Shown here piece by piece: positions 5,183-41,594 of a stretch of DNA of 49,570 nt. The notes under the pieces were generated by a model that was given only the letters and a program-made list of their open reading frames with translations, was not told the origin of the DNA and ran no database searches. The DNA is from Acidimicrobiia bacterium. Lineage in GTDB: Bacteria; Actinomycetota; Acidimicrobiia; IMCC26256; JACDBD01. The DNA is taken from assembly GCA_050743365.1 (NCBI GenBank), contig JBOGFI010000037.1, forward strand, positions 1 through 49,570, given 5' to 3'. Every line of letters starts with the position of its first letter. Position 1 is the first letter of the stretch. Position numbers and translations under genes: made by a program.

Positions 5183-5256
5183 GCCCCCGTATCCCAACTG
5201 GCAGAGGAGAGGGTCTTAAACACCCTTCAGTGTGGGTTCGACTCCCACCGGGGGCA
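5183..5256 (+). tRNA. tRNA-like gene, class-I size, anticodon UAA (Leu codon UUA/UUG), discriminator A
   Basis: Hand fold: GCCCCCG-TA-TCCC-AACTGGCAG-AGGA-G-AGGGT-CTTAAAC-ACCCT-TCAGT-GTGGG-TTCGACT-CCCAC-CGGGGGC-A. It has a 7-bp acceptor, 5-bp anticodon stem and 5-bp T stem. U8, A14, G18G19, U33, A37, G53, T54-T55-C56, A58 and C61 are all present. No CCA is encoded. Confidence 0.55.
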
Positions 5257-5282
5257 CGTCGTTCATGCAGGTCATGGCACGC

Positions 5283-21502: not shown

Positions 21503-22501
21503 ATGAGCCTGATCACGAACGTCGTGCACGGCGGCGAGCCCGAGCGGGTCTTCCTGCTCGCCCACGGCCTCGGCGCCGACGAGCGCGACCTGAGTGGACT
21601 GCTGCCCTACCTCGACCCTGACGGGCGTTTCGTCACCGTGCTCCCGCGCGGGCCGGTCGCGGCCCCTCCCGGGTTCGCCTGGTACCAGTGGGGCGAGTCG
21701 GGCGCGTTCGACGCCGAGGGCTTCCGGTCGAGCCTCGACGAGCTCGACGACCTGCTCGACGAGGCCTGCACCGAGCACGGGCTCGGGCGCGACGAGGCGG
21801 TGGTGGGCGGCTTCTCCCAGGGCGCGGGGATGACGCTCGCGCTCGCCCTTCGTCGCAGCGAGCGGCTCCACCCGGCGGCGGTGCTCGCGATGAGCCCCGC
21901 CGCCCCGGCGCTCGACGCCCTCGACCCCGACTGGGAGGCGGCCAAGGCCATGTCCGTGCTCGTGCAGCACGGCACCGAGGACCCGCTGGTGCCCGTGCAG
22001 CGCAGCCGCGACCTCGCCCGCACCCTCGAGTCGCACGGCGTGCCCGTGACCTATACCGAGTACCCGATGGCCCACCAGGTCGCGCTCGAGAGCGTGCAGC
22101 AGGGCCGGGACTGGCTCGACGCGGTGCGGGCCGGCGAGCAGCCGTCGGAGGTCGTCCCCGAGGACCCGCCCGAGGGCCCGGTCAAGGCGGTGACCACCGC
22201 CACGTTCGACCACGAGGTGCTGGCGGGCGAGCTCCCCGTGATCGTCGACTTCTGGGCGCCGTGGTGTGCCCCGTGCCGCCAGGTGAGCCCGATCGTCGAG
22301 CAGATCGCGATGATGCGCGAGGGGGCCTACAAGGTCGTGAAGGTCAACATCGACGACGAGCCCGCGATCGCCCAGCGCTACGAGGTGCAGAGCATCCCGA
22401 TGATCGGCCTGTTCCGCAACGGCCGCCTCGAGCGCTCCTCCCTGGGCGCCAAGCCGCGCCAGCAGATCGAGGCCGAGCTCGGCATGCTCGTGATCCCGTA
22501 G
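21503..22501 (+). CDS. Fusion protein: phospholipase/carboxylesterase-type alpha/beta hydrolase plus thioredoxin
   Basis: The N-domain has the GFSQGAG nucleophile elbow, HGTEDPLVP and YPMAHQV. The C-domain is FDHEVLAGELPVIVDFWAPWCAPCRQVSPIVEQIA...VKVNIDDEPAIAQRYEVQSIPMIGLF, a thioredoxin with a WCAPC active site. Confidence 0.85.
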   Translation: MSLITNVVHGGEPERVFLLAHGLGADERDLSGLLPYLDPDGRFVTVLPRGPVAAPPGFAWYQWGESGAFDAEGFRSSLDELDDLLDEACTEHGLGRDEAVVGGFSQGAGMTLALALRRSERLHPAAVLAMSPAAPALDALDPDWEAAKAMSVLVQHGTEDPLVPVQRSRDLARTLESHGVPVTYTEYPMAHQVALESVQQGRDWLDAVRAGEQPSEVVPEDPPEGPVKAVTTATFDHEVLAGELPVIVDFWAPWCAPCRQVSPIVEQIAMMREGAYKVVKVNIDDEPAIAQRYEVQSIPMIGLFRNGRLERSSLGAKPRQQIEAELGMLVIP

Positions 22502-22507
22502 CGCTCG

Positions 22508-23572
22508 TCAGCAGACTCGGATCGTCGTCGGCTCGCCGCGTGTGACGCGGCCGACGATCGCCGCAGCCGGGGTGTTGCGCGAGCGGAGCTCGTCGACCAG
22601 ATCGCCCGAGCGGCCGGGCGCCACCGCGAGGAGCAGGCCGCCCGAGGTCTGGGCGTCGGCGAGGAGCAGCTGCTGGGACTCGGGCAGCCCGCCCCAATCC
22701 ACGGTGTCGCTGACGAAGGCATGGTTGCGTTGCGTGCCACCCGCGACCATGTCCGCCGCGAGCAGCTCACGGACGCCGTCGATCACGGGCACTGACGCCG
22801 CGTCGACCTCGGCCGAGACCCCCGACGCCACGAGCATCTCCCGGAGATGCCCGAGCAGGCCGAAACCGGTGACGTCGGTTCCGGCGTGGACCGCGCCACC
22901 GAGCGCGGCGGCGGCATCGCGCGCGCCCGCGTTGAGGGTCGTCATCACGTGGACGGCGTCGTCGAGCACACCCGCGGGCGCGGCGTCGCGCTTCAGCGCG
23001 GTCGAGATCACGCCCAGGCCGATGGGCTTGGTGAGCACGAGCGCGTCGCCCGGAAGGGCGGCGGCGTTGGTGAGCACGCGGGCGGGGTCGACCGTTCCCA
23101 CGACGGCGAGGCCGAACTTGGGCTCGGCGTCGTCGATGGAGTGCCCCCCCGCCACGACCGCGCCGGCGGCGCGCACGACGTCGGCGCCGCCGTCGAGCAC
23201 CCGCGCGAGCAGCTCGAACGGCAGTCCCTCGCGGGGCCAGGCCACCAGGTTGAGGGCGAGCAGCGGCGTCCCGCCCATCGCGTACACGTCGGACAGGGCG
23301 TTGGCGGCGGCGATGCGCCCCCAGTCGTAGGGGTCGTCGACGATCGGGGTGAAGAAGTCGGTCGTCACCACGACGGCCAGGTCGGCGCGCAGCCGGTACA
23401 CCGCGGCGTCGTCGGACGTGTCCAGCCCCACCAGCAGGTCGGGGTCGGCCGGCGGATCGAGCCCGCGCACGAGCCCGAGCACCGTGCGCAGGTCGGCGGG
23501 ACCGAGCTTGCAGGCGCAGCCGGCGCCGTGCGAGAAGCGGGTGAGGCGGACGGGCTCGGCCGCGGTCGTCAC
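22508..23572 (-). CDS. selD: Selenide, water dikinase (Cys form)
   Basis: LTRFSHGAGCACKLGP (Cys/Lys active-site loop), DDAAVY, TTDFFTPIVDDPYDWGRIAAANALSDVYAMGG, GGHSIDD. The GTG at 23572 was chosen; 23587 is an alternative. Upstream tracked codons are a shadow frame. Confidence 0.9.
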   Translation of the reverse strand: MTTAAEPVRLTRFSHGAGCACKLGPADLRTVLGLVRGLDPPADPDLLVGLDTSDDAAVYRLRADLAVVVTTDFFTPIVDDPYDWGRIAAANALSDVYAMGGTPLLALNLVAWPREGLPFELLARVLDGGADVVRAAGAVVAGGHSIDDAEPKFGLAVVGTVDPARVLTNAAALPGDALVLTKPIGLGVISTALKRDAAPAGVLDDAVHVMTTLNAGARDAAAALGGAVHAGTDVTGFGLLGHLREMLVASGVSAEVDAASVPVIDGVRELLAADMVAGGTQRNHAFVSDTVDWGGLPESQQLLLADAQTSGGLLLAVAPGRSGDLVDELRSRNTPAAAIVGRVTRGEPTTIRVC

Positions 23573-23592: not shown

Positions 23593-24663
23593 TTAGCCGC
23601 TGACGCGCACCGCCGCGCGCACGGAACCGCTGCCGGCGACGAACTTGATGAAGTCGCCGGTGTGGGTGGCGTGGATGTACCCGCCCCCGACCCAGATGCC
23701 GATGTGCGCTGGCCAGCTGCTCGTCGTGATGAGGTCGCCGGGGGCGAGCTGGTCGATCGAGATCGCCTGGCCCTGCCCCGCCTGCGCGCCCGAGTAGTGC
23801 GGCAGCGACACACCCCCGGCGCGCCACGCCATCATCGTGAGGCCCGAGCAGTCGTAGCAGCCCGGCCCGGCACCCGCGTAGCAGTACGGCTTGCCGACCT
23901 GGGCCCACGCGTACCCGACCGCCGCGCCCGCGCCACCGTGCCCGAGCGGCGGTGGGCCCGACGGTCCGCCGCCGCCGCGGCTTCGGCCAGCACTACCAGA
24001 GGATCGCGGCGGCGCCGCGGCTGCGGCCCGGGCGGCGGCGTCGCGCCGCGTTTGCTCCTCGCCCACGTACTGCTCGATCTCGCCGTTGACCTGGTCGAGG
24101 AGACCCTGCTGCTCGGCGGCGGCGGCGTCGGCCTCGGCCTTGGCGCCAGCGAGGTCGTCGCGCTCCTTCCCGGCCTCTTCGCGCGTCCTCTCGGCGTCCG
24201 ACTTCTGCTGCGCGAGGTCTTCCTTCGCCTGCGAGAGCTGGTCGACGAGGGCCTCGTCCCCGGCGGCGGCGGCGTCGGTGTACTTCTCACGGCTCCCCGA
24301 CTCCGTGGCGTCCTCGGCGTTGATCGACTCGAGCGGACCGCTCGTGCCGGAGATGCGGTAGATGGTGGCGGCCCGATCGGCGATCAGCATGGTGAGCTCG
24401 CCGATCCGCGCCTGCGCGCCGTCGATCCGTCGCTGGGAGTCGGCGATCTTCTCCTCGGCCTCGTCGACGCGGATCTGCGCCGCGTTCAGCTGCTCCCCCA
24501 GCGCGGCGACCTTGGCGCCGTGCTCGTCGATCTCGTCCTGGAGGCGCGCCGCCTCGGCGCGCTTGTCGTCGATGGGCGCGCCGGGAGCGGCGGTCGGGAG
24601 GAGCAGCGGCGCGGTGGCGCCGACGAAGAGGAGGGCTACCAGCCGGGCAGGCCGGAGGTTCAC
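23593..24663 (-). CDS. Secreted NlpC/P60 peptidoglycan hydrolase with N-terminal coiled coil (RipA-like)
   Basis: Signal peptide MNLRPARLVALLFVGATAPLLL, then a long E/A/Q-rich coiled coil. The C-terminal domain is GKPYCYAGAGPGCYDCSGLTMMAW...HIGIWVGGGYIHATH. GTG start with GGGAG 7 nt upstream. Confidence 0.9.
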   Translation of the reverse strand: MNLRPARLVALLFVGATAPLLLPTAAPGAPIDDKRAEAARLQDEIDEHGAKVAALGEQLNAAQIRVDEAEEKIADSQRRIDGAQARIGELTMLIADRAATIYRISGTSGPLESINAEDATESGSREKYTDAAAAGDEALVDQLSQAKEDLAQQKSDAERTREEAGKERDDLAGAKAEADAAAAEQQGLLDQVNGEIEQYVGEEQTRRDAAARAAAAAPPRSSGSAGRSRGGGGPSGPPPLGHGGAGAAVGYAWAQVGKPYCYAGAGPGCYDCSGLTMMAWRAGGVSLPHYSGAQAGQGQAISIDQLAPGDLITTSSWPAHIGIWVGGGYIHATHTGDFIKFVAGSGSVRAAVRVSG

Positions 24664-24732
24664 GTAGGGACTCCCTTTGGCAGGTGCCGCCGTCGGTCCT
24701 TGCTGAACACGGTCTGGCTTTTGGCGGACTAT

Positions 24733-24771
24733 AAAAAGACGCCCGTACGCACCCAGAGGGGACGTGCGGGC
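24733..24771 (-). terminator. Intrinsic terminator-like hairpin plus U5 inside the NlpC/P60 leader
   Basis: Minus-strand RNA is GCCCGCACGUCCCC-UCU-GGGUGCGUACGGGC. It has 12 pairs (11 WC and 1 GU), two 1x1 mismatches and a 3-nt loop, followed by GUCUUUUUAU. It lies 121 nt after the upstream stop and 70 nt before the NlpC/P60 GTG. Confidence 0.65.
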
Positions 24772-24875
24772 TTCTACTGAACCCGAGGGGGGACTTGCGG
24801 GCTTCGGCTAAAGGTTAGACGCCGCCCCCCAGCGGCGCCAGCATTGCCGACCGCTGTCTACCCCGATCAGCCGTC
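24733..24875 (-). promoter_or_regulatory. Candidate structured cis-regulatory leader RNA (four hairpins: two G-loops, two C-loops) upstream of the NlpC/P60 gene
   Basis: Hand-folded hairpins lie at 24849..24875 (loop AUCGGGGUAGA), 24818..24839 (8 bp, loop UGGGGG), 24779..24805 (loop CAAGUCCCCCCU) and 24741..24771 (terminator). The 17-nt direct repeat GAAGCCCGCA[A/C]GUCCCC lies at 24789..24805 and 24758..24774. Confidence 0.55.
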
Positions 24876-24891
24876 CCCCAAACCGGATATA

Positions 24892-25371
24892 TCAGGCGGC
24901 CCAGCCAGGGGTGGGGGCCGGATCGTAGGGCCCGGCGACCTCGGGGACCGTCCACGCCAGCGCCTTGCCGACCTCTCGGGCGACCCGCTGCCATTCGCGT
25001 GGGTCCCAGCCCTCGGCGGCGGCGACGACGGTGGTGTCCTGGCGCAGGTGCACGAACGCAGGCAGGCGCTCCAGCCCGAGGCTGTGCACGAAGGCGCGGT
25101 CGGGGTCGACGAACACGACCGCCTCCCGCTCCGCGTCGGCGAGGATGCGACGGGCGACGCTCACGTTGCCGGTCACGCAATACGCCGCGTGGCAGTCGGC
25201 GTCGGCGAACGTACGAAAGATTCGACGCGCGACCGGCACCCACGCGCTCGCCTCCGGCCGATCGGGGAGGACCACCAGGCAGAGGTGGAACATCGTCGAC
25301 CAGTCGTCGAGCGTGCGCGTCACGCCCTTGATGCTGGTGAGCTCGAGCGTCGGATCCGGGTCCTTGGCCAC
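24892..25371 (-). CDS. Hypothetical protein (possibly thioredoxin-fold, no CxxC)
   Basis: 159 aa with protein-like composition: LELTSIKGVTRTLDDWSTMFHLCLVVLPDRPEASAWVPVARRIFRTF...LPAFVHLRQDTTVVAAAEGWDPREW. The family is not recognised with confidence. Confidence 0.6.
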   Translation of the reverse strand: MAKDPDPTLELTSIKGVTRTLDDWSTMFHLCLVVLPDRPEASAWVPVARRIFRTFADADCHAAYCVTGNVSVARRILADAEREAVVFVDPDRAFVHSLGLERLPAFVHLRQDTTVVAAAEGWDPREWQRVAREVGKALAWTVPEVAGPYDPAPTPGWAA

Positions 25372-41159: not shown

Positions 41160-41594
41160 ATGGACGATCGCACCGGCGCCGACACGGTGCGGCGGTTCAA
41201 CGAGGAGCTGCCGTGGGGTCCGTTTCCGTCAATGATCGGGCTCGAGATGCTCGAGATCGAACGCGATGTCGTGCGCGGCCGGCTCGGCGTCACGGACCGC
41301 CTGCTGGCCGGGACCGGGTTCCTGTGGGCACCGGTGGTCGTCGGGCTCGCCGACGCGCTGTGCGCGGCGGGTACCGGCGCCAACCTGCCCGAGGGTGCGA
41401 GCTTCACCACGGTCGAGCTCAAGACAAACTTCCTCGGCTCGGCGCGGGGCGGCGAGGCGGTCGAGGGGGAGGCTCGGCCCGCGCACCTCGGCCGCACAAC
41501 CCAGGTGTGGGACGTGACGGTGACCAACACGACGTCGGGCCGGCTGATCGCGCTCCAGCGCTGCACCCAGATGATTCTCTACCCCAGGGCCTGA
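41160..41594 (+). CDS. PaaI-family (hotdog fold) thioesterase
   Basis: PFPSMIGLEMLEIERDVVRGRL...TTVELKTNFLGSARGGEAVEGEARPAHLGRTTQVWDVTV. Confidence 0.85.
   Translation: MDDRTGADTVRRFNEELPWGPFPSMIGLEMLEIERDVVRGRLGVTDRLLAGTGFLWAPVVVGLADALCAAGTGANLPEGASFTTVELKTNFLGSARGGEAVEGEARPAHLGRTTQVWDVTVTNTTSGRLIALQRCTQMILYPRA

What the first reader, a model, noticed from the sequence alone, without database searches (positions are those of the whole stretch)
24664..24891. Four-hairpin G-loop/C-loop leader RNA with a duplicated terminator arm upstream of the NlpC/P60 hydrolase gene
On the minus strand, the 228-nt gap between the stop at 24892 and the NlpC/P60 GTG at 24663 folds by hand into four consecutive hairpins.
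- Hairpin 1 (24875..24849): 7 pairs around a G:G mismatch, 11-nt loop AUCGGGGUAGA.
- Hairpin 2 (24839..24818): 8 pairs, loop UGGGGG.
- Hairpin 3 (24805..24779): 7 pairs with a one-nt bulge, 12-nt loop CAAGUCCCCCCU.
- Hairpin 4 (24771..24741): 12 pairs, followed by GUC-UUUUU (24737..24733), a classic intrinsic terminator 70 nt before the start codon.
The 5' arm of the terminator, GAAGCCCGCACGUCCCC, is a 16/17 direct repeat of the 5' half of hairpin 3, GAAGCCCGCAAGUCCCC. The second copy can therefore fold in two mutually exclusive ways. One is a short hairpin-3-like stem (CCCG/UGGG) exposing a CCCC loop; the other is the long terminator. The two upstream G-rich loops are complementary to the two C-rich loops, so loop-loop kissing could decide between the folds. 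Established context supports a regulatory reading. NlpC/P60 and Rpf wall hydrolase genes in Actinobacteria are classic targets of the c-di-AMP (ydaO) riboswitch. A separate NLPC-P60 RNA motif has been described in Streptomyces. The actinobacterial 6C motif is defined by two C-rich hairpin loops. I could not align the ordered ydaO core blocks here, so this may be a distinct or undescribed class. The element sits at the exact centre of the window.
Basis: partly seen in the sequence, partly recalled or inferred. Interest (0 to 1): 0.8.

Follow-up and report, generated by a model that had tools for sequence, protein, structure and literature searches.

The report
Promoter, terminator-like hairpin, ribosome-site stem
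The gap before this cell-wall hydrolase gene is not a four-hairpin riboswitch but a conserved promoter, one conserved terminator-like hairpin and a conserved, undescribed stretch around the ribosome-binding site, found where related bacteria carry the c-di-AMP riboswitch.

Summary
All four hairpins, the 16/17 repeated arm and the hairpin-plus-UUUUU are present at the stated coordinates. Comparison with about 30 syntenic Acidimicrobiia-type loci splits them into unrelated parts.

- **Hairpin 1:** it lies in a stretch of variable length that is not conserved.
- **Hairpin 2:** it is the 18-nt spacer of a conserved sigma-A-type promoter, nTGGCr-N18-TAGGGT (window: CTGGCG-N18-TAACCT). Its pairs are not conserved.
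- **Hairpin 3:** it comes from a 31-nt tandem duplication seen only in this window.
- **Hairpin 4:** it is conserved with clear covariation, starts 8-12 nt after the -10 box and is followed by a U/G-rich tract.
- **Element R1 (24722..24646):** It can fold so that the Shine-Dalgarno sequence and start codon are paired, but the pairs are invariant, so the structure is unproven.

Rfam gives no hit here or in 28 orthologous loci. The c-di-AMP riboswitch is found upstream of more distant homologues in Actinomycetes.

**Best reading:** the hairpin ends the upstream gene's transcript, attenuates and caps the hydrolase mRNA, and R1 limits translation. The kissing-loop switch is not supported. This is a moderately interesting candidate for a new leader motif.

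The parts
24892..25371 (-). Upstream 159-aa gene ('p159'). No Pfam family; only a weak, sub-threshold Redoxin match.
   Evidence: ORF list. Pfam scans. tblastn finds it directly upstream and co-directional in 21 of 21 tested loci, at 52-87% identity.
24849..24875 (-). A local hairpin in the variable stretch between the p159 stop and the promoter; not conserved.
   Evidence: Folds at -11.3 kcal/mol, z -3.4. The stretch from the stop codon to the -35 box ranges from 8 nt to about 200 nt or more among orthologues.
24836..24841 (-). -35-like hexamer CTGGCG.
   Evidence: An ungapped 30-nt alignment of 20 loci shows nTGGCr with T2, G3 and C5 invariant. The pattern TGGCR-N17-19-TAGNNT occurs upstream of the orthologues.
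24818..24839 (-). It covers the last 4 nt of the -35 hexamer plus the 18-nt promoter spacer (24835..24818). The spacer has fixed length, variable sequence and no conserved pairing.
   Evidence: Alignment of 20 loci. Pair counts: 52.8% of cells paired, not above shuffled or slid controls.
24812..24817 (-). -10-like hexamer TAACCT (TAGGGT in most orthologues).
   Evidence: T, A and the final T are invariant in 20 loci.
24804..24805 (-). Predicted transcription start. This is inferred, not shown: it is the 7th-8th nt after the -10 box.
   Evidence: Inference from the usual actinobacterial -10-to-start distance (own knowledge). The conserved hairpin starts 8-12 nt after the -10 box in most loci.
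24752..24812 (-). Tandem duplication: copy A 24812..24783 and copy B 24781..24752. It covers the start region plus the 5' half of the conserved hairpin and was seen only in this window.
   Evidence: Repeat search: 30 nt, 80% identity, spacing 31 nt. Absent from L161, L163, L165, L167, L169, L170, L197, L181 and L191.
24779..24805 (-). A weak hairpin made from copy A and the duplication junction.
   Evidence: Folds at -6.7 kcal/mol, z -1.07. No counterpart in the orthologues.
24737..24775 (-).
   Evidence: Folds at -21.1 kcal/mol, z -4.0. RNAalifold finds 10 pairs, 7 with compensatory changes. Pairing is 90% against 69% in shuffles, with 44 double-change cells against 16 (0 of 500 shuffles reach this).
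24728..24736 (-). U-rich tail UUUUAUAGU. Orthologues carry U/G-rich tracts such as GUUGUUGUUG or CUUUUUUU.
   Evidence: Tails are 31% U against a 14.7% background, even with over-extended automatic stems.
24646..24722 (-). Conserved leader element R1, which extends into the first five codons. Candidate pairings:
- CCG 24712..24710 with CGG 24654..24652.
- GUUCA 24708..24704 with UGAAC 24662..24658 (start codon plus codon 2).
- GGAC 24699..24696 with GUCC 24671..24668.
- An inner GGC/GCC stem.

The Shine-Dalgarno sequence GGGAG lies at 24675..24671.
   Evidence: Alignments A2 and A6 show 29 invariant columns in 15 sequences. Covariance model R1 hits once per orthologous locus at 22.5-85 bits and nowhere else. 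The same fold is the minimum-energy structure in 8 of 8 orthologues. There is no covariation.
23593..24663 (-). NlpC/P60 endopeptidase gene of RipC/CwlO type: signal peptide, coiled coil and a C-terminal NlpC/P60 domain.
   Evidence: Pfam PF00877. The best NCBIfam match is RipC, below its cut-off. Homologues were retrieved.
22511..23572 (-). SelD-like gene (AIRS and AIRS_C domains) starting 20 nt after the hydrolase stop. It is probably co-transcribed.
   Evidence: Pfam scan. The same adjacency occurs in L161, L163, L165, L167, L170 and L181.

Best explanation
The gap holds the expression signals of a RipC/CwlO-like cell-wall endopeptidase gene, in this order:
1. A sigma-A-type promoter, CTGGCG-N18-TAACCT.
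2. A stable G+C-rich hairpin followed by a U-rich tract, starting almost at the predicted first transcribed base.
3. Further downstream, a conserved 76-nt stretch in which the Shine-Dalgarno sequence and the start codon can be paired.

Proposed mechanism:
- The hairpin with its U tract is an intrinsic terminator that ends transcripts of the upstream 159-aa gene.
- Because the hydrolase promoter lies just upstream of it, the same hairpin also stops some hydrolase transcripts early (attenuation).
- In transcripts that read through, it forms a stem-loop at the 5' end that should hinder 5'-end-dependent RNases.
- R1 then limits translation initiation, possibly under the control of an unknown factor.

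Together these would keep a potentially lytic enzyme at a low level.

In this window a 31-nt duplication has added a second, weak hairpin (hairpin 3) at the 5' end. Hairpins 1 and 2 are incidental.

Shown: conservation, covariation of the hairpin, the promoter motif with fixed spacing, and absence of known RNA families.
Inferred: the transcription start, termination, stabilisation and translational repression.
For: Synteny:
- The order p159, gap, NlpC/P60 is kept in all orthologous loci examined.

Promoter:
- 20 loci align without gaps as nTGGCr-N18-TAGGGT, with a variable spacer.
- The same type of motif, TTGGCR-N17-TAGnnT, precedes c-di-AMP riboswitches of distant homologues.

Hairpin:
- It starts 8-12 nt after the -10 box in most loci.
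- Its pairs covary: 7 of 10 have compensatory changes; 90% of cells are paired against 69% in shuffles; 0 of 500 shuffles reach the observed value.
- Its tail is U-rich.
- In L163 it ends 17 nt before the ATG, and in L165 50 nt before the GTG, so no promoter fits downstream.
- No other terminator-like site was found between p159 and the hydrolase gene in L002, L120 or L181.

R1:
- 29 invariant columns.
- Single-copy and gene-specific.
- 8 of 8 minimum-energy folds pair GUUCA with UGAAC and GGAC with GUCC.
- The element lies 44-62 nt from the start codon but 40-162 nt from the -10 box.

Precedent:
- The B. subtilis cwlO leader controls transcript stability (Noone et al. 2014, as cited in bioRxiv 10.1101/2022.01.12.475998).
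Against: - No transcription start, 3'-end or expression data are available.
- A strong terminator about 50-70 nt after its own promoter would abort most transcripts, which is an unusual design.
- R1's helices show no compensatory change. In the diverged L081, L083, L084 and L001 the pairs break rather than covary.
- R1's folding energy is no better than that of shuffled sequence (z about 0).
- R1 is absent or degenerate in several clades: L161, L197, L163, L165, L001, L181, L191 and L089. It is therefore dispensable.
- An E. coli-type promoter scan finds nothing here.
Confidence: 0.55

Rival explanations
1. One four-hairpin leader RNA acts as a riboswitch-like element. Kissing between the G-rich loops (hairpins 1 and 2) and the C-rich loops (hairpins 3 and 4) decides whether the duplicated arm forms the terminator.
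For: - All four hairpins fold locally.
- The loops are complementary by inspection.
- Read-through transcripts from p159 would contain all four.
Against: - Hairpin 1 lies in a stretch of variable length.
- Hairpin 2's pairs are not conserved, and it sits between conserved -35 and -10 boxes at a fixed 18-nt spacing.
- The duplication, and so hairpin 3, was seen only in the window.
- The terminator fold dominates the ensemble at P 0.996, against 0.0004 and -2.7 kcal/mol for the alternatives.
- The whole gap folds no better than shuffles (z -1.06).
Confidence: 0.04
2. Hairpin 4 is only the terminator of the upstream 159-aa gene. The hydrolase mRNA starts inside or after it, so its own transcripts never form the full hairpin. 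There is no attenuation and no 5' cap function.
For: - It is the first terminator-like structure after p159 in every locus, and no other was found in L002, L120 or L181.
- The hairpin and U tract look like a classic terminator.
- A start a few nt further downstream than assumed cannot be excluded without data.
Against: - The hairpin's position is fixed relative to the -10 box (8-12 nt). It is not fixed relative to the p159 stop: that distance varies by about 200 nt because the stretch from the stop to the -35 box ranges from 8 nt to about 200 nt or more.
- There is no room for a downstream promoter in L163 or L165.
- With the usual distance of about 7 nt from the -10 box, the start falls before the stem.
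Confidence: 0.17
3. R1 (24722..24646) is a new ligand- or protein-responsive translational control RNA. In Acidimicrobiia it takes the place that the c-di-AMP riboswitch holds upstream of RipC/NlpC-type genes in Actinomycetes.
For: - Nucleotide conservation across hosts whose hydrolases are only 36-62% identical.
- Strict association with this one gene.
- It encloses the Shine-Dalgarno sequence and start codon.
- It sits behind the same promoter type and in front of the same kind of gene as RF00379 in relatives.
- No Rfam family matches.
Against: - No covariation.
- A simple, imperfect hairpin with no evident multi-helix pocket.
- Lost in several clades.
- Similarity to the 3' part of ydaO is not significant: 25-79% of shuffles score as well.
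Confidence: 0.17
4. The conserved block CGTGTTCAGCAAGGACCGA is a DNA operator for a transcription factor, for example a cell-envelope response regulator such as MtrA, rather than an RNA element.
For: - It is conserved in sequence rather than by covariation.
- Some loci carry two or three GACCG / TGTTCA direct repeats.
- MtrA controls wall hydrolase genes in Actinobacteria (PMC9599347).
Against: - Repeat spacing varies from 13 to 17 nt.
- The block is fixed relative to the start codon, not the promoter.
- Conservation runs on through the Shine-Dalgarno sequence into codons 2-4.
- The only MtrA motif retrieved is 'TCG-rich' and does not resemble the block.
Confidence: 0.07

Closest known systems
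c-di-AMP (ydaO/kimA) riboswitch, RF00379, upstream of nlpC / RipC-type genes in Actinomycetes
   Same: - Same kind of gene downstream.
- Same type of promoter upstream (TTGGCR-N17-TAGnnT).
- A long leader that ends at the Shine-Dalgarno sequence.
- In C. glutamicum the nlpC riboswitch probably acts on translation (PMC9960051).
   Different: - The covariance model does not match the window or the 28 orthologous loci scanned, while it scores 44-86 bits in 8 distant homologues.
- The leader here has only single hairpins, not the large pseudo-symmetric aptamer.
- Local similarity of R1 to the ydaO 3' strand is not significant.
Bacillus subtilis cwlO leader
   Same: A coiled-coil NlpC/P60 D,L-endopeptidase gene whose long 5' leader sets the mRNA level after transcription (Noone et al. 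2014, as cited in bioRxiv 10.1101/2022.01.12.475998).
   Different: - The cwlO leader destabilises the mRNA, whereas a 5'-terminal hairpin would be expected to stabilise it.
- No sequence relationship was tested or expected.
- The organisms belong to different phyla.
5'-terminal stabiliser stem-loops (E. coli ompA hp1, B. subtilis aprE and ermC leaders). From own knowledge, not tested here.
   Same: A stable hairpin within a few nt of the predicted 5' end, followed by a single-stranded U-rich segment and a second structure at the ribosome-binding site.
   Different: - Here the hairpin also has a terminator-type U tract.
- It lies downstream of another gene.
- The 5' end is only predicted.
Promoter-proximal terminators that make a short transcript unless read through (phage lambda pR'-tR'). 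From own knowledge.
   Same: A promoter followed within tens of nt by an intrinsic terminator that every transcript of the downstream gene must pass.
   Different: - No antiterminator is known here.
- No -10-like pause element was seen at the start of the transcript, though no dedicated search for one was run.
- The distance is shorter, about 45-70 nt.
6C RNA and the Streptomyces NLPC-P60 motif (Rfam)
   Same: Actinobacterial RNAs. 6C has two C-rich loops, and the window's hairpins 3 and 4 carry C runs.
   Different: - No match even at E<=10.
- The second C-rich hairpin exists only because of the window-specific duplication.
- Loop sequences vary among orthologues.

Membership tests
c-di-AMP riboswitch (ydaO/kimA, RF00379) | Match to the Rfam covariance model at or above its gathering score (38 bits). 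| tested here: not met
   No hit in the window at gathering thresholds or at E<=10 on 24600-24950. None in 20 orthologous loci, and none at E<=1 in 8 more. Positive control: 8 hits of 44-86 bits upstream of distant homologues.
c-di-AMP riboswitch (ydaO/kimA, RF00379) | A large multi-helix aptamer (model length 134) between the promoter and the ribosome-binding site. | tested here: not met
   Leaders are 71-224 nt from the -10 box to the start codon. They consist of one covarying hairpin plus the R1 hairpin.
c-di-AMP riboswitch (ydaO/kimA, RF00379) | Binds c-di-AMP. | not testable with these tools
   Needs in-line probing or ITC.
6C RNA | Rfam model match, and two hairpins with conserved C-rich loops. 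| tested here: not met
   No 6C hit at E<=10. The second hairpin is window-specific. Loops are not conserved.
NLPC-P60 RNA motif (Rfam, Streptomyces) | Rfam model match. | tested here: not met
   No hit at E<=10 in the gap. None in the orthologous loci.
Intrinsic (Rho-independent) terminator | A G+C-rich hairpin immediately followed by a U-rich tract on the transcribed strand. | tested here: met
   Hairpin of -21.1 kcal/mol plus UUUUAUAG. Hairpin and U/G-rich tail are conserved in orthologues.
Intrinsic (Rho-independent) terminator | Transcripts actually end at the U tract. | not testable with these tools
   Needs Term-seq, northern blotting or in-vitro transcription.
Sigma-70 / sigma-A-type promoter | -35 and -10 hexamers at a constrained spacing, conserved across orthologues while the spacer varies. 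| tested here: met
   nTGGCr-N18-TAGGGT in 20 loci aligned without gaps; spacing is 19 nt in L001 and L002. An E. coli-consensus scan finds nothing, as expected for a TANNNT-type -10 box.
Sigma-70 / sigma-A-type promoter | A mapped transcription start about 7 nt downstream of the -10 box. | not testable with these tools
   Needs 5'-RACE or dRNA-seq.
5'-terminal stabiliser stem-loop | A stable hairpin within about 5 nt of the mRNA's 5' end. | tested here: inconclusive
   The hairpin starts 8-12 nt after the -10 box in most loci. This gives 1-5 unpaired nt if the start is at the usual distance, but the start is not mapped.
Shine-Dalgarno / start-codon sequestering leader | Conserved base pairing that covers the ribosome-binding site, supported by covariation. 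| tested here: inconclusive
   92.8-93.8% of cells are paired and 8 of 8 minimum-energy folds agree. The key helices never covary, and they break in diverged loci.

The most novel reading that the evidence does not exclude
R1, perhaps together with the promoter-proximal terminator, is an undescribed class of cis-regulatory RNA: a compact riboswitch or a protein-binding operator. In Acidimicrobiia it would replace the c-di-AMP riboswitch in front of RipC/CwlO-type peptidoglycan endopeptidase genes and couple their translation to a cell-envelope or second-messenger signal.
Probability: 0.15. Interest if true: 0.75.

Novelty: new variant of a known kind. Interest (0 to 1): 0.4.

Why it matters
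Peptidoglycan endopeptidases of the RipC/CwlO type can lyse the cell and are tightly controlled. Control is by c-di-AMP riboswitches in Actinomycetes and by an unstable leader in Bacillus.

This window shows that a largely uncultured class, Acidimicrobiia, uses a different conserved leader at the same place. That leader has a promoter placed just upstream of a terminator-like hairpin, and a strongly conserved stretch around the ribosome-binding site that is in no RNA family database.

If R1 proves to be regulated, it would be a new control element for cell-wall remodelling. It would also be an example of one riboregulator replacing another during evolution.

The unusual order of stop codon, promoter, then terminator is a testable case of one hairpin serving two neighbouring transcription units.

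Tried and rejected
1. **Known RNA families.** Rfam at gathering and permissive thresholds found nothing on the window and nothing relevant on 28 orthologous loci.
2. **Repeat family.** I asked whether the repeated 17-mer belongs to a dispersed repeat family. It occurs only in these two copies in the window.
3. **Hairpin 2 as a conserved structure.** Rejected.
4. **Duplicated arm as a switch.** Rejected on energies and base-pair probabilities.
5. **R1 as a relic of the ydaO 3' strand.** Local alignments score no better than shuffles.
6. **A conserved upstream ORF.** I tested for one ending in the UGA that overlaps the start codon (the 'VFSKDR' frame). Its GUG start is replaced by GCG or GGG in four loci, and the frame changes with loop length, so it is rejected.
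7. **Extra copies of R1 that would define a regulon.** None were found. The hits in the window at 41183-41276 (E 0.33) and in L130 are noise.
8. **Pairing of the U/G tract with CAGCAA in R1 as an anti-sequestor.** By inspection this is possible in some loci but not kept in L167, L169 or L170, so it was not pursued.
9. **A separate terminator for p159 in loci with long gaps.** None found.
10. **MtrA operator.** The motif in the literature is too vague to test.
11. **A CGAC:GUCG replacement of the GGAC:GUCC helix in L165.** The minimum-energy fold does not show it.
12. **DNA of the 96%-identical relative (P0001).** It could not be fetched. Whether it shares the duplication is therefore only suggested by its identical 228-nt gap.
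Full report
**1. What is in the window**

On the minus strand a 159-aa ORF (25371..24892, here called p159) is followed by a 228-nt gap (24891..24664). Next comes a 356-aa gene with a C-terminal NlpC/P60 domain (24663..23593). Its best NCBIfam match is the mycobacterial hydrolase RipC, below that model's cut-off. JGI names several homologues CwlO. A SelD-like gene starts 20 nt after its stop.

| Hairpin | Energy (kcal/mol) | z-score |
|---|---|---|
| 1 | -11.3 | -3.4 |
| 2 | -16.5 | -4.2 |
| 3 | -6.7 | -1.1 |
| 4 | -21.1 | -4.0 |

Hairpin 4 is followed by UUUUAUAG and is picked up by a simple terminator scan. The repeated arm is part of a 30-nt, 80%-identical tandem duplication, 24812..24783 and 24781..24752. 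Its 17-mer is found nowhere else in the window. The gap as a whole folds no better than shuffled sequence (z -1.06).

**2. Known families**

Rfam 15 finds only a tRNA in the window at gathering thresholds. A permissive scan of 24600-24950 (E<=10) gives only chance-level matches, with no ydaO, 6C or NLPC-P60.

**3. Relatives**

The hydrolase has more than 1000 homologues, mostly from uncultured Acidimicrobiia and Actinomycetota. I fetched 198 loci.

In the orthologous group p159 is always directly upstream and co-directional, at 52-87% identity. It is better conserved than the hydrolase. The gap is 111-250 nt long. None of 20 such loci has an Rfam hit at gathering thresholds. Eight more have no relevant hit at E<=1.

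**4. A promoter, not hairpin 2**

Twenty loci align without a single gap over 30 nt as nTGGCr-N18-TAGGGT. In the window this is CTGGCG 24841..24836 and TAACCT 24817..24812. The hexamer positions are invariant and the spacer is variable. L001 and L002 have a 19-nt spacer.

Its nine pairs are kept in only 52.8% of cells. That is no better than shuffled partners, or partners slid by 1-3 columns.

A fixed length with free sequence between two conserved hexamers is the signature of a promoter rather than of an RNA helix.

The same motif type, TTGGCR-N17-TAGnnT, lies upstream of the c-di-AMP riboswitches of distant homologues. Those riboswitches must be transcribed from such a position.

Hairpin 1 lies between the p159 stop and the -35 box. 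That stretch is 8 nt in L167 and about 200 nt or more in L002.

**5. Hairpin 4 is real and conserved**

In most loci a stable hairpin starts 8-12 nt after the -10 box. On 17 sequences RNAalifold predicts 10 pairs, 7 of them with compensatory changes.

| Measure | Observed | Shuffled or slid control |
|---|---|---|
| Cells paired | 90% | 69% shuffled; 30-51% slid |
| Double-change cells | 44 | 16 |
| Covariation score | 0.62 | 0.25 |

No shuffle out of 500 reached the observed values.

The hairpin is followed by a U- or U/G-rich tract such as GUUGUUGUUG, GGUUUUGUAG or CUUUUUUU. These tails are 31% U against a 14.7% background, even with crude automatic stem calls.

In L163 the hairpin ends 17 nt before the ATG, and in L165 50 nt before the GTG. 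No promoter can fit downstream, so hydrolase transcripts must pass through it. No other terminator-like site separates p159 from the hydrolase gene in L002, L120 or L181.

**6. Hairpin 3 and the 'switch'**

The ten other orthologue lineages whose sequence between the -10 box and the hairpin I read directly all lack the 31-nt duplication. They include the closest with DNA: L161 (64%), L197 (62%), L163 and L165 (61%).

A 96%-identical relative has a gap of the same 228-nt length, but its DNA could not be read.

In the folding ensemble the terminator's core pair has probability 0.996. Pairing of copy A with the 3' arm has probability 0.0004.

The duplication copies the start region and the 5' arm. 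The window's predicted transcript therefore simply gains a weak extra 5' hairpin.

**7.

The most conserved part of the leader is 24722..24646..ACCGUGUUCAGCAAGGACCGAC..GGC-loop-GCC..GGGAGUCCC..GUGAACCUCCGG. It has 29 invariant columns in 15 sequences, from hosts whose hydrolases are only 36-62% identical to the window's.

A covariance model of it (R1) hits once per orthologous locus at 22.5-85 bits. It hits nowhere else in about 0.9 Mb, including the rest of the window.

Minimum-energy folds of 8 of 8 orthologues give the same imperfect hairpin:
- CCG pairs with CGG.
- GUUCA pairs with UGAAC (the start codon plus codon 2).
- GGAC pairs with GUCC.
- There is an inner GGC:GCC stem.
- The Shine-Dalgarno sequence lies inside the fold.

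However, the key pairs never vary. They break rather than covary in the diverged L081, L083, L084 and L001. The folds are no more stable than shuffles. RNAalifold on a plain alignment finds nothing, or only the invariant pairs. The structure is therefore compatible with the data but unproven.

R1 is missing or degenerate in L161, L197, L163, L165, L001, L181, L191 and L089.

It is not a conserved upstream ORF, because the candidate start codon and reading frame are not kept. It is not a recognisable relic of ydaO.

**8. Positive control and evolutionary context**

The same Rfam search finds the c-di-AMP riboswitch, at 44-86 bits, upstream of the hydrolase homologue in seven loci: L012, L017, L026, L038, L108, L122 and L129. 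An eighth hit, in L011, lies downstream of the matched gene. All eight are Actinomycetes or other Actinomycetota.

It agrees with the experimentally studied C. glutamicum nlpC riboswitch (PMC9960051). The Acidimicrobiia-type clade thus carries a different leader at the equivalent place.

**9. Mechanism**

- *Shown:* the promoter motif, the covarying hairpin with a U-rich tail at a fixed distance from the -10 box, the conserved R1 block, and the absence of known families.
- *Inferred:* transcription starts about 7 nt after TAACCT (24805/24804). The hairpin terminates p159 transcripts and part of the hydrolase transcripts. It remains as a 5'-terminal stem-loop on read-through mRNA. R1 restrains ribosome access.
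- *Precedent:* post-transcriptional control of a CwlO-type gene through its leader is known in B. subtilis (Noone et al. 2014, as cited in bioRxiv 10.1101/2022.01.12.475998).
- *Analogies from my own knowledge:* 5' stabiliser hairpins (ompA, aprE) and promoter-proximal terminators (lambda pR'-tR').

The main rivals are these:
- The hairpin is only p159's terminator, and the hydrolase start lies inside it.
- R1 is a new riboswitch or protein operator.
- The block is a DNA operator.

**10. Verdict**

A non-ydaO regulatory leader with a real terminator hairpin exists, but its architecture and mechanism are not those proposed.

The leader is a new variant of a known kind of element. The candidate motif R1 is undescribed as far as Rfam 15 and the searchable literature show. 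Interest is moderate.

Noticed in passing
window 24892..25371 (-): The 159-aa protein upstream has no Pfam family, only a sub-threshold Redoxin match at E 0.0065. It is more conserved than the hydrolase (up to 87% identity) and always sits directly upstream of it. It may be a functional partner of the hydrolase.
   Followed up: partly
window 22511..23572 (-): A SelD-like gene (AIRS and AIRS_C domains) starts 20 nt after the hydrolase stop, and the same adjacency occurs in most orthologous loci. The leader may therefore control a hydrolase-selD operon, which is an odd pairing.
   Followed up: partly
L017 2705-2732, L038 2624-2651, L108 2062-2089, L122 2606-2633, L129 2390-2417: Distant NlpC/P60 homologues in Actinomycetes carry a near-consensus promoter, TTGGCR-N17-TAGnnT. 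It lies about 30 to 110 nt upstream of their c-di-AMP riboswitch. This is the same promoter type as in the window's clade.
   Followed up: partly
L002 (CAZJSY010000018.1): This contig is labelled 'uncultured Burkholderiales bacterium'. Yet it has the full Acidimicrobiia-type synteny: p159, promoter, hairpin, R1 and the hydrolase gene. It is probably a mis-binned contig.
   Followed up: no
L197 640-715 and L161 2938-3015: In the clade closest to the window the R1 block has degenerated to GCGUUCGCG. In L197 it has a complement, GCGAAC, just upstream of the Shine-Dalgarno sequence, and the L197 minimum-energy fold pairs the two. In L161 the matching stretch is GCGAAG and the minimum-energy fold does not pair it. 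GUGAAC at the start codon is still present in both. GUUC may thus have two alternative partners in this clade.
   Followed up: partly
L001 2925-2960, L181 625-660, L191: In the clade without R1, the U/G tract after the hairpin (UUGUUGUUU) is complementary to a downstream CAACGAC or AAAACAAC segment and folds with it. A different hairpin, GGCUGC..CAGCC, abuts the Shine-Dalgarno sequence.
   Followed up: no
L171-L180 (marine, low G+C): A low-G+C lineage of the hydrolase has no called p159-like 159-aa gene in the 700 nt upstream. Its short leader is TAGGGT, then a small hairpin, then AGGA, with no R1.
   Followed up: no
window 21503..22501 (+): A fusion protein of an alpha/beta-hydrolase domain (Abhydrolase_2) and a thioredoxin domain, also present in the syntenic locus L161.
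   Followed up: no
window 5183..5257 (+): tRNA-Leu (anticodon TAA). It is the only RNA gene that Rfam or ARAGORN finds in the window.
   Followed up: yes
window 24663..24652 (-) and orthologues: The first codons, AUG/GUG-AAC-CUC/CGC-CGG, are nearly invariant at the nucleotide level, while the rest of the signal peptide diverges. Loci that lack R1 also lack AAC as codon 2 (L163, L165, L089, L001). The exception is the degenerate L161/L197 clade, which keeps GUGAAC. This suggests an RNA-level constraint on the start of the coding sequence.
   Followed up: partly
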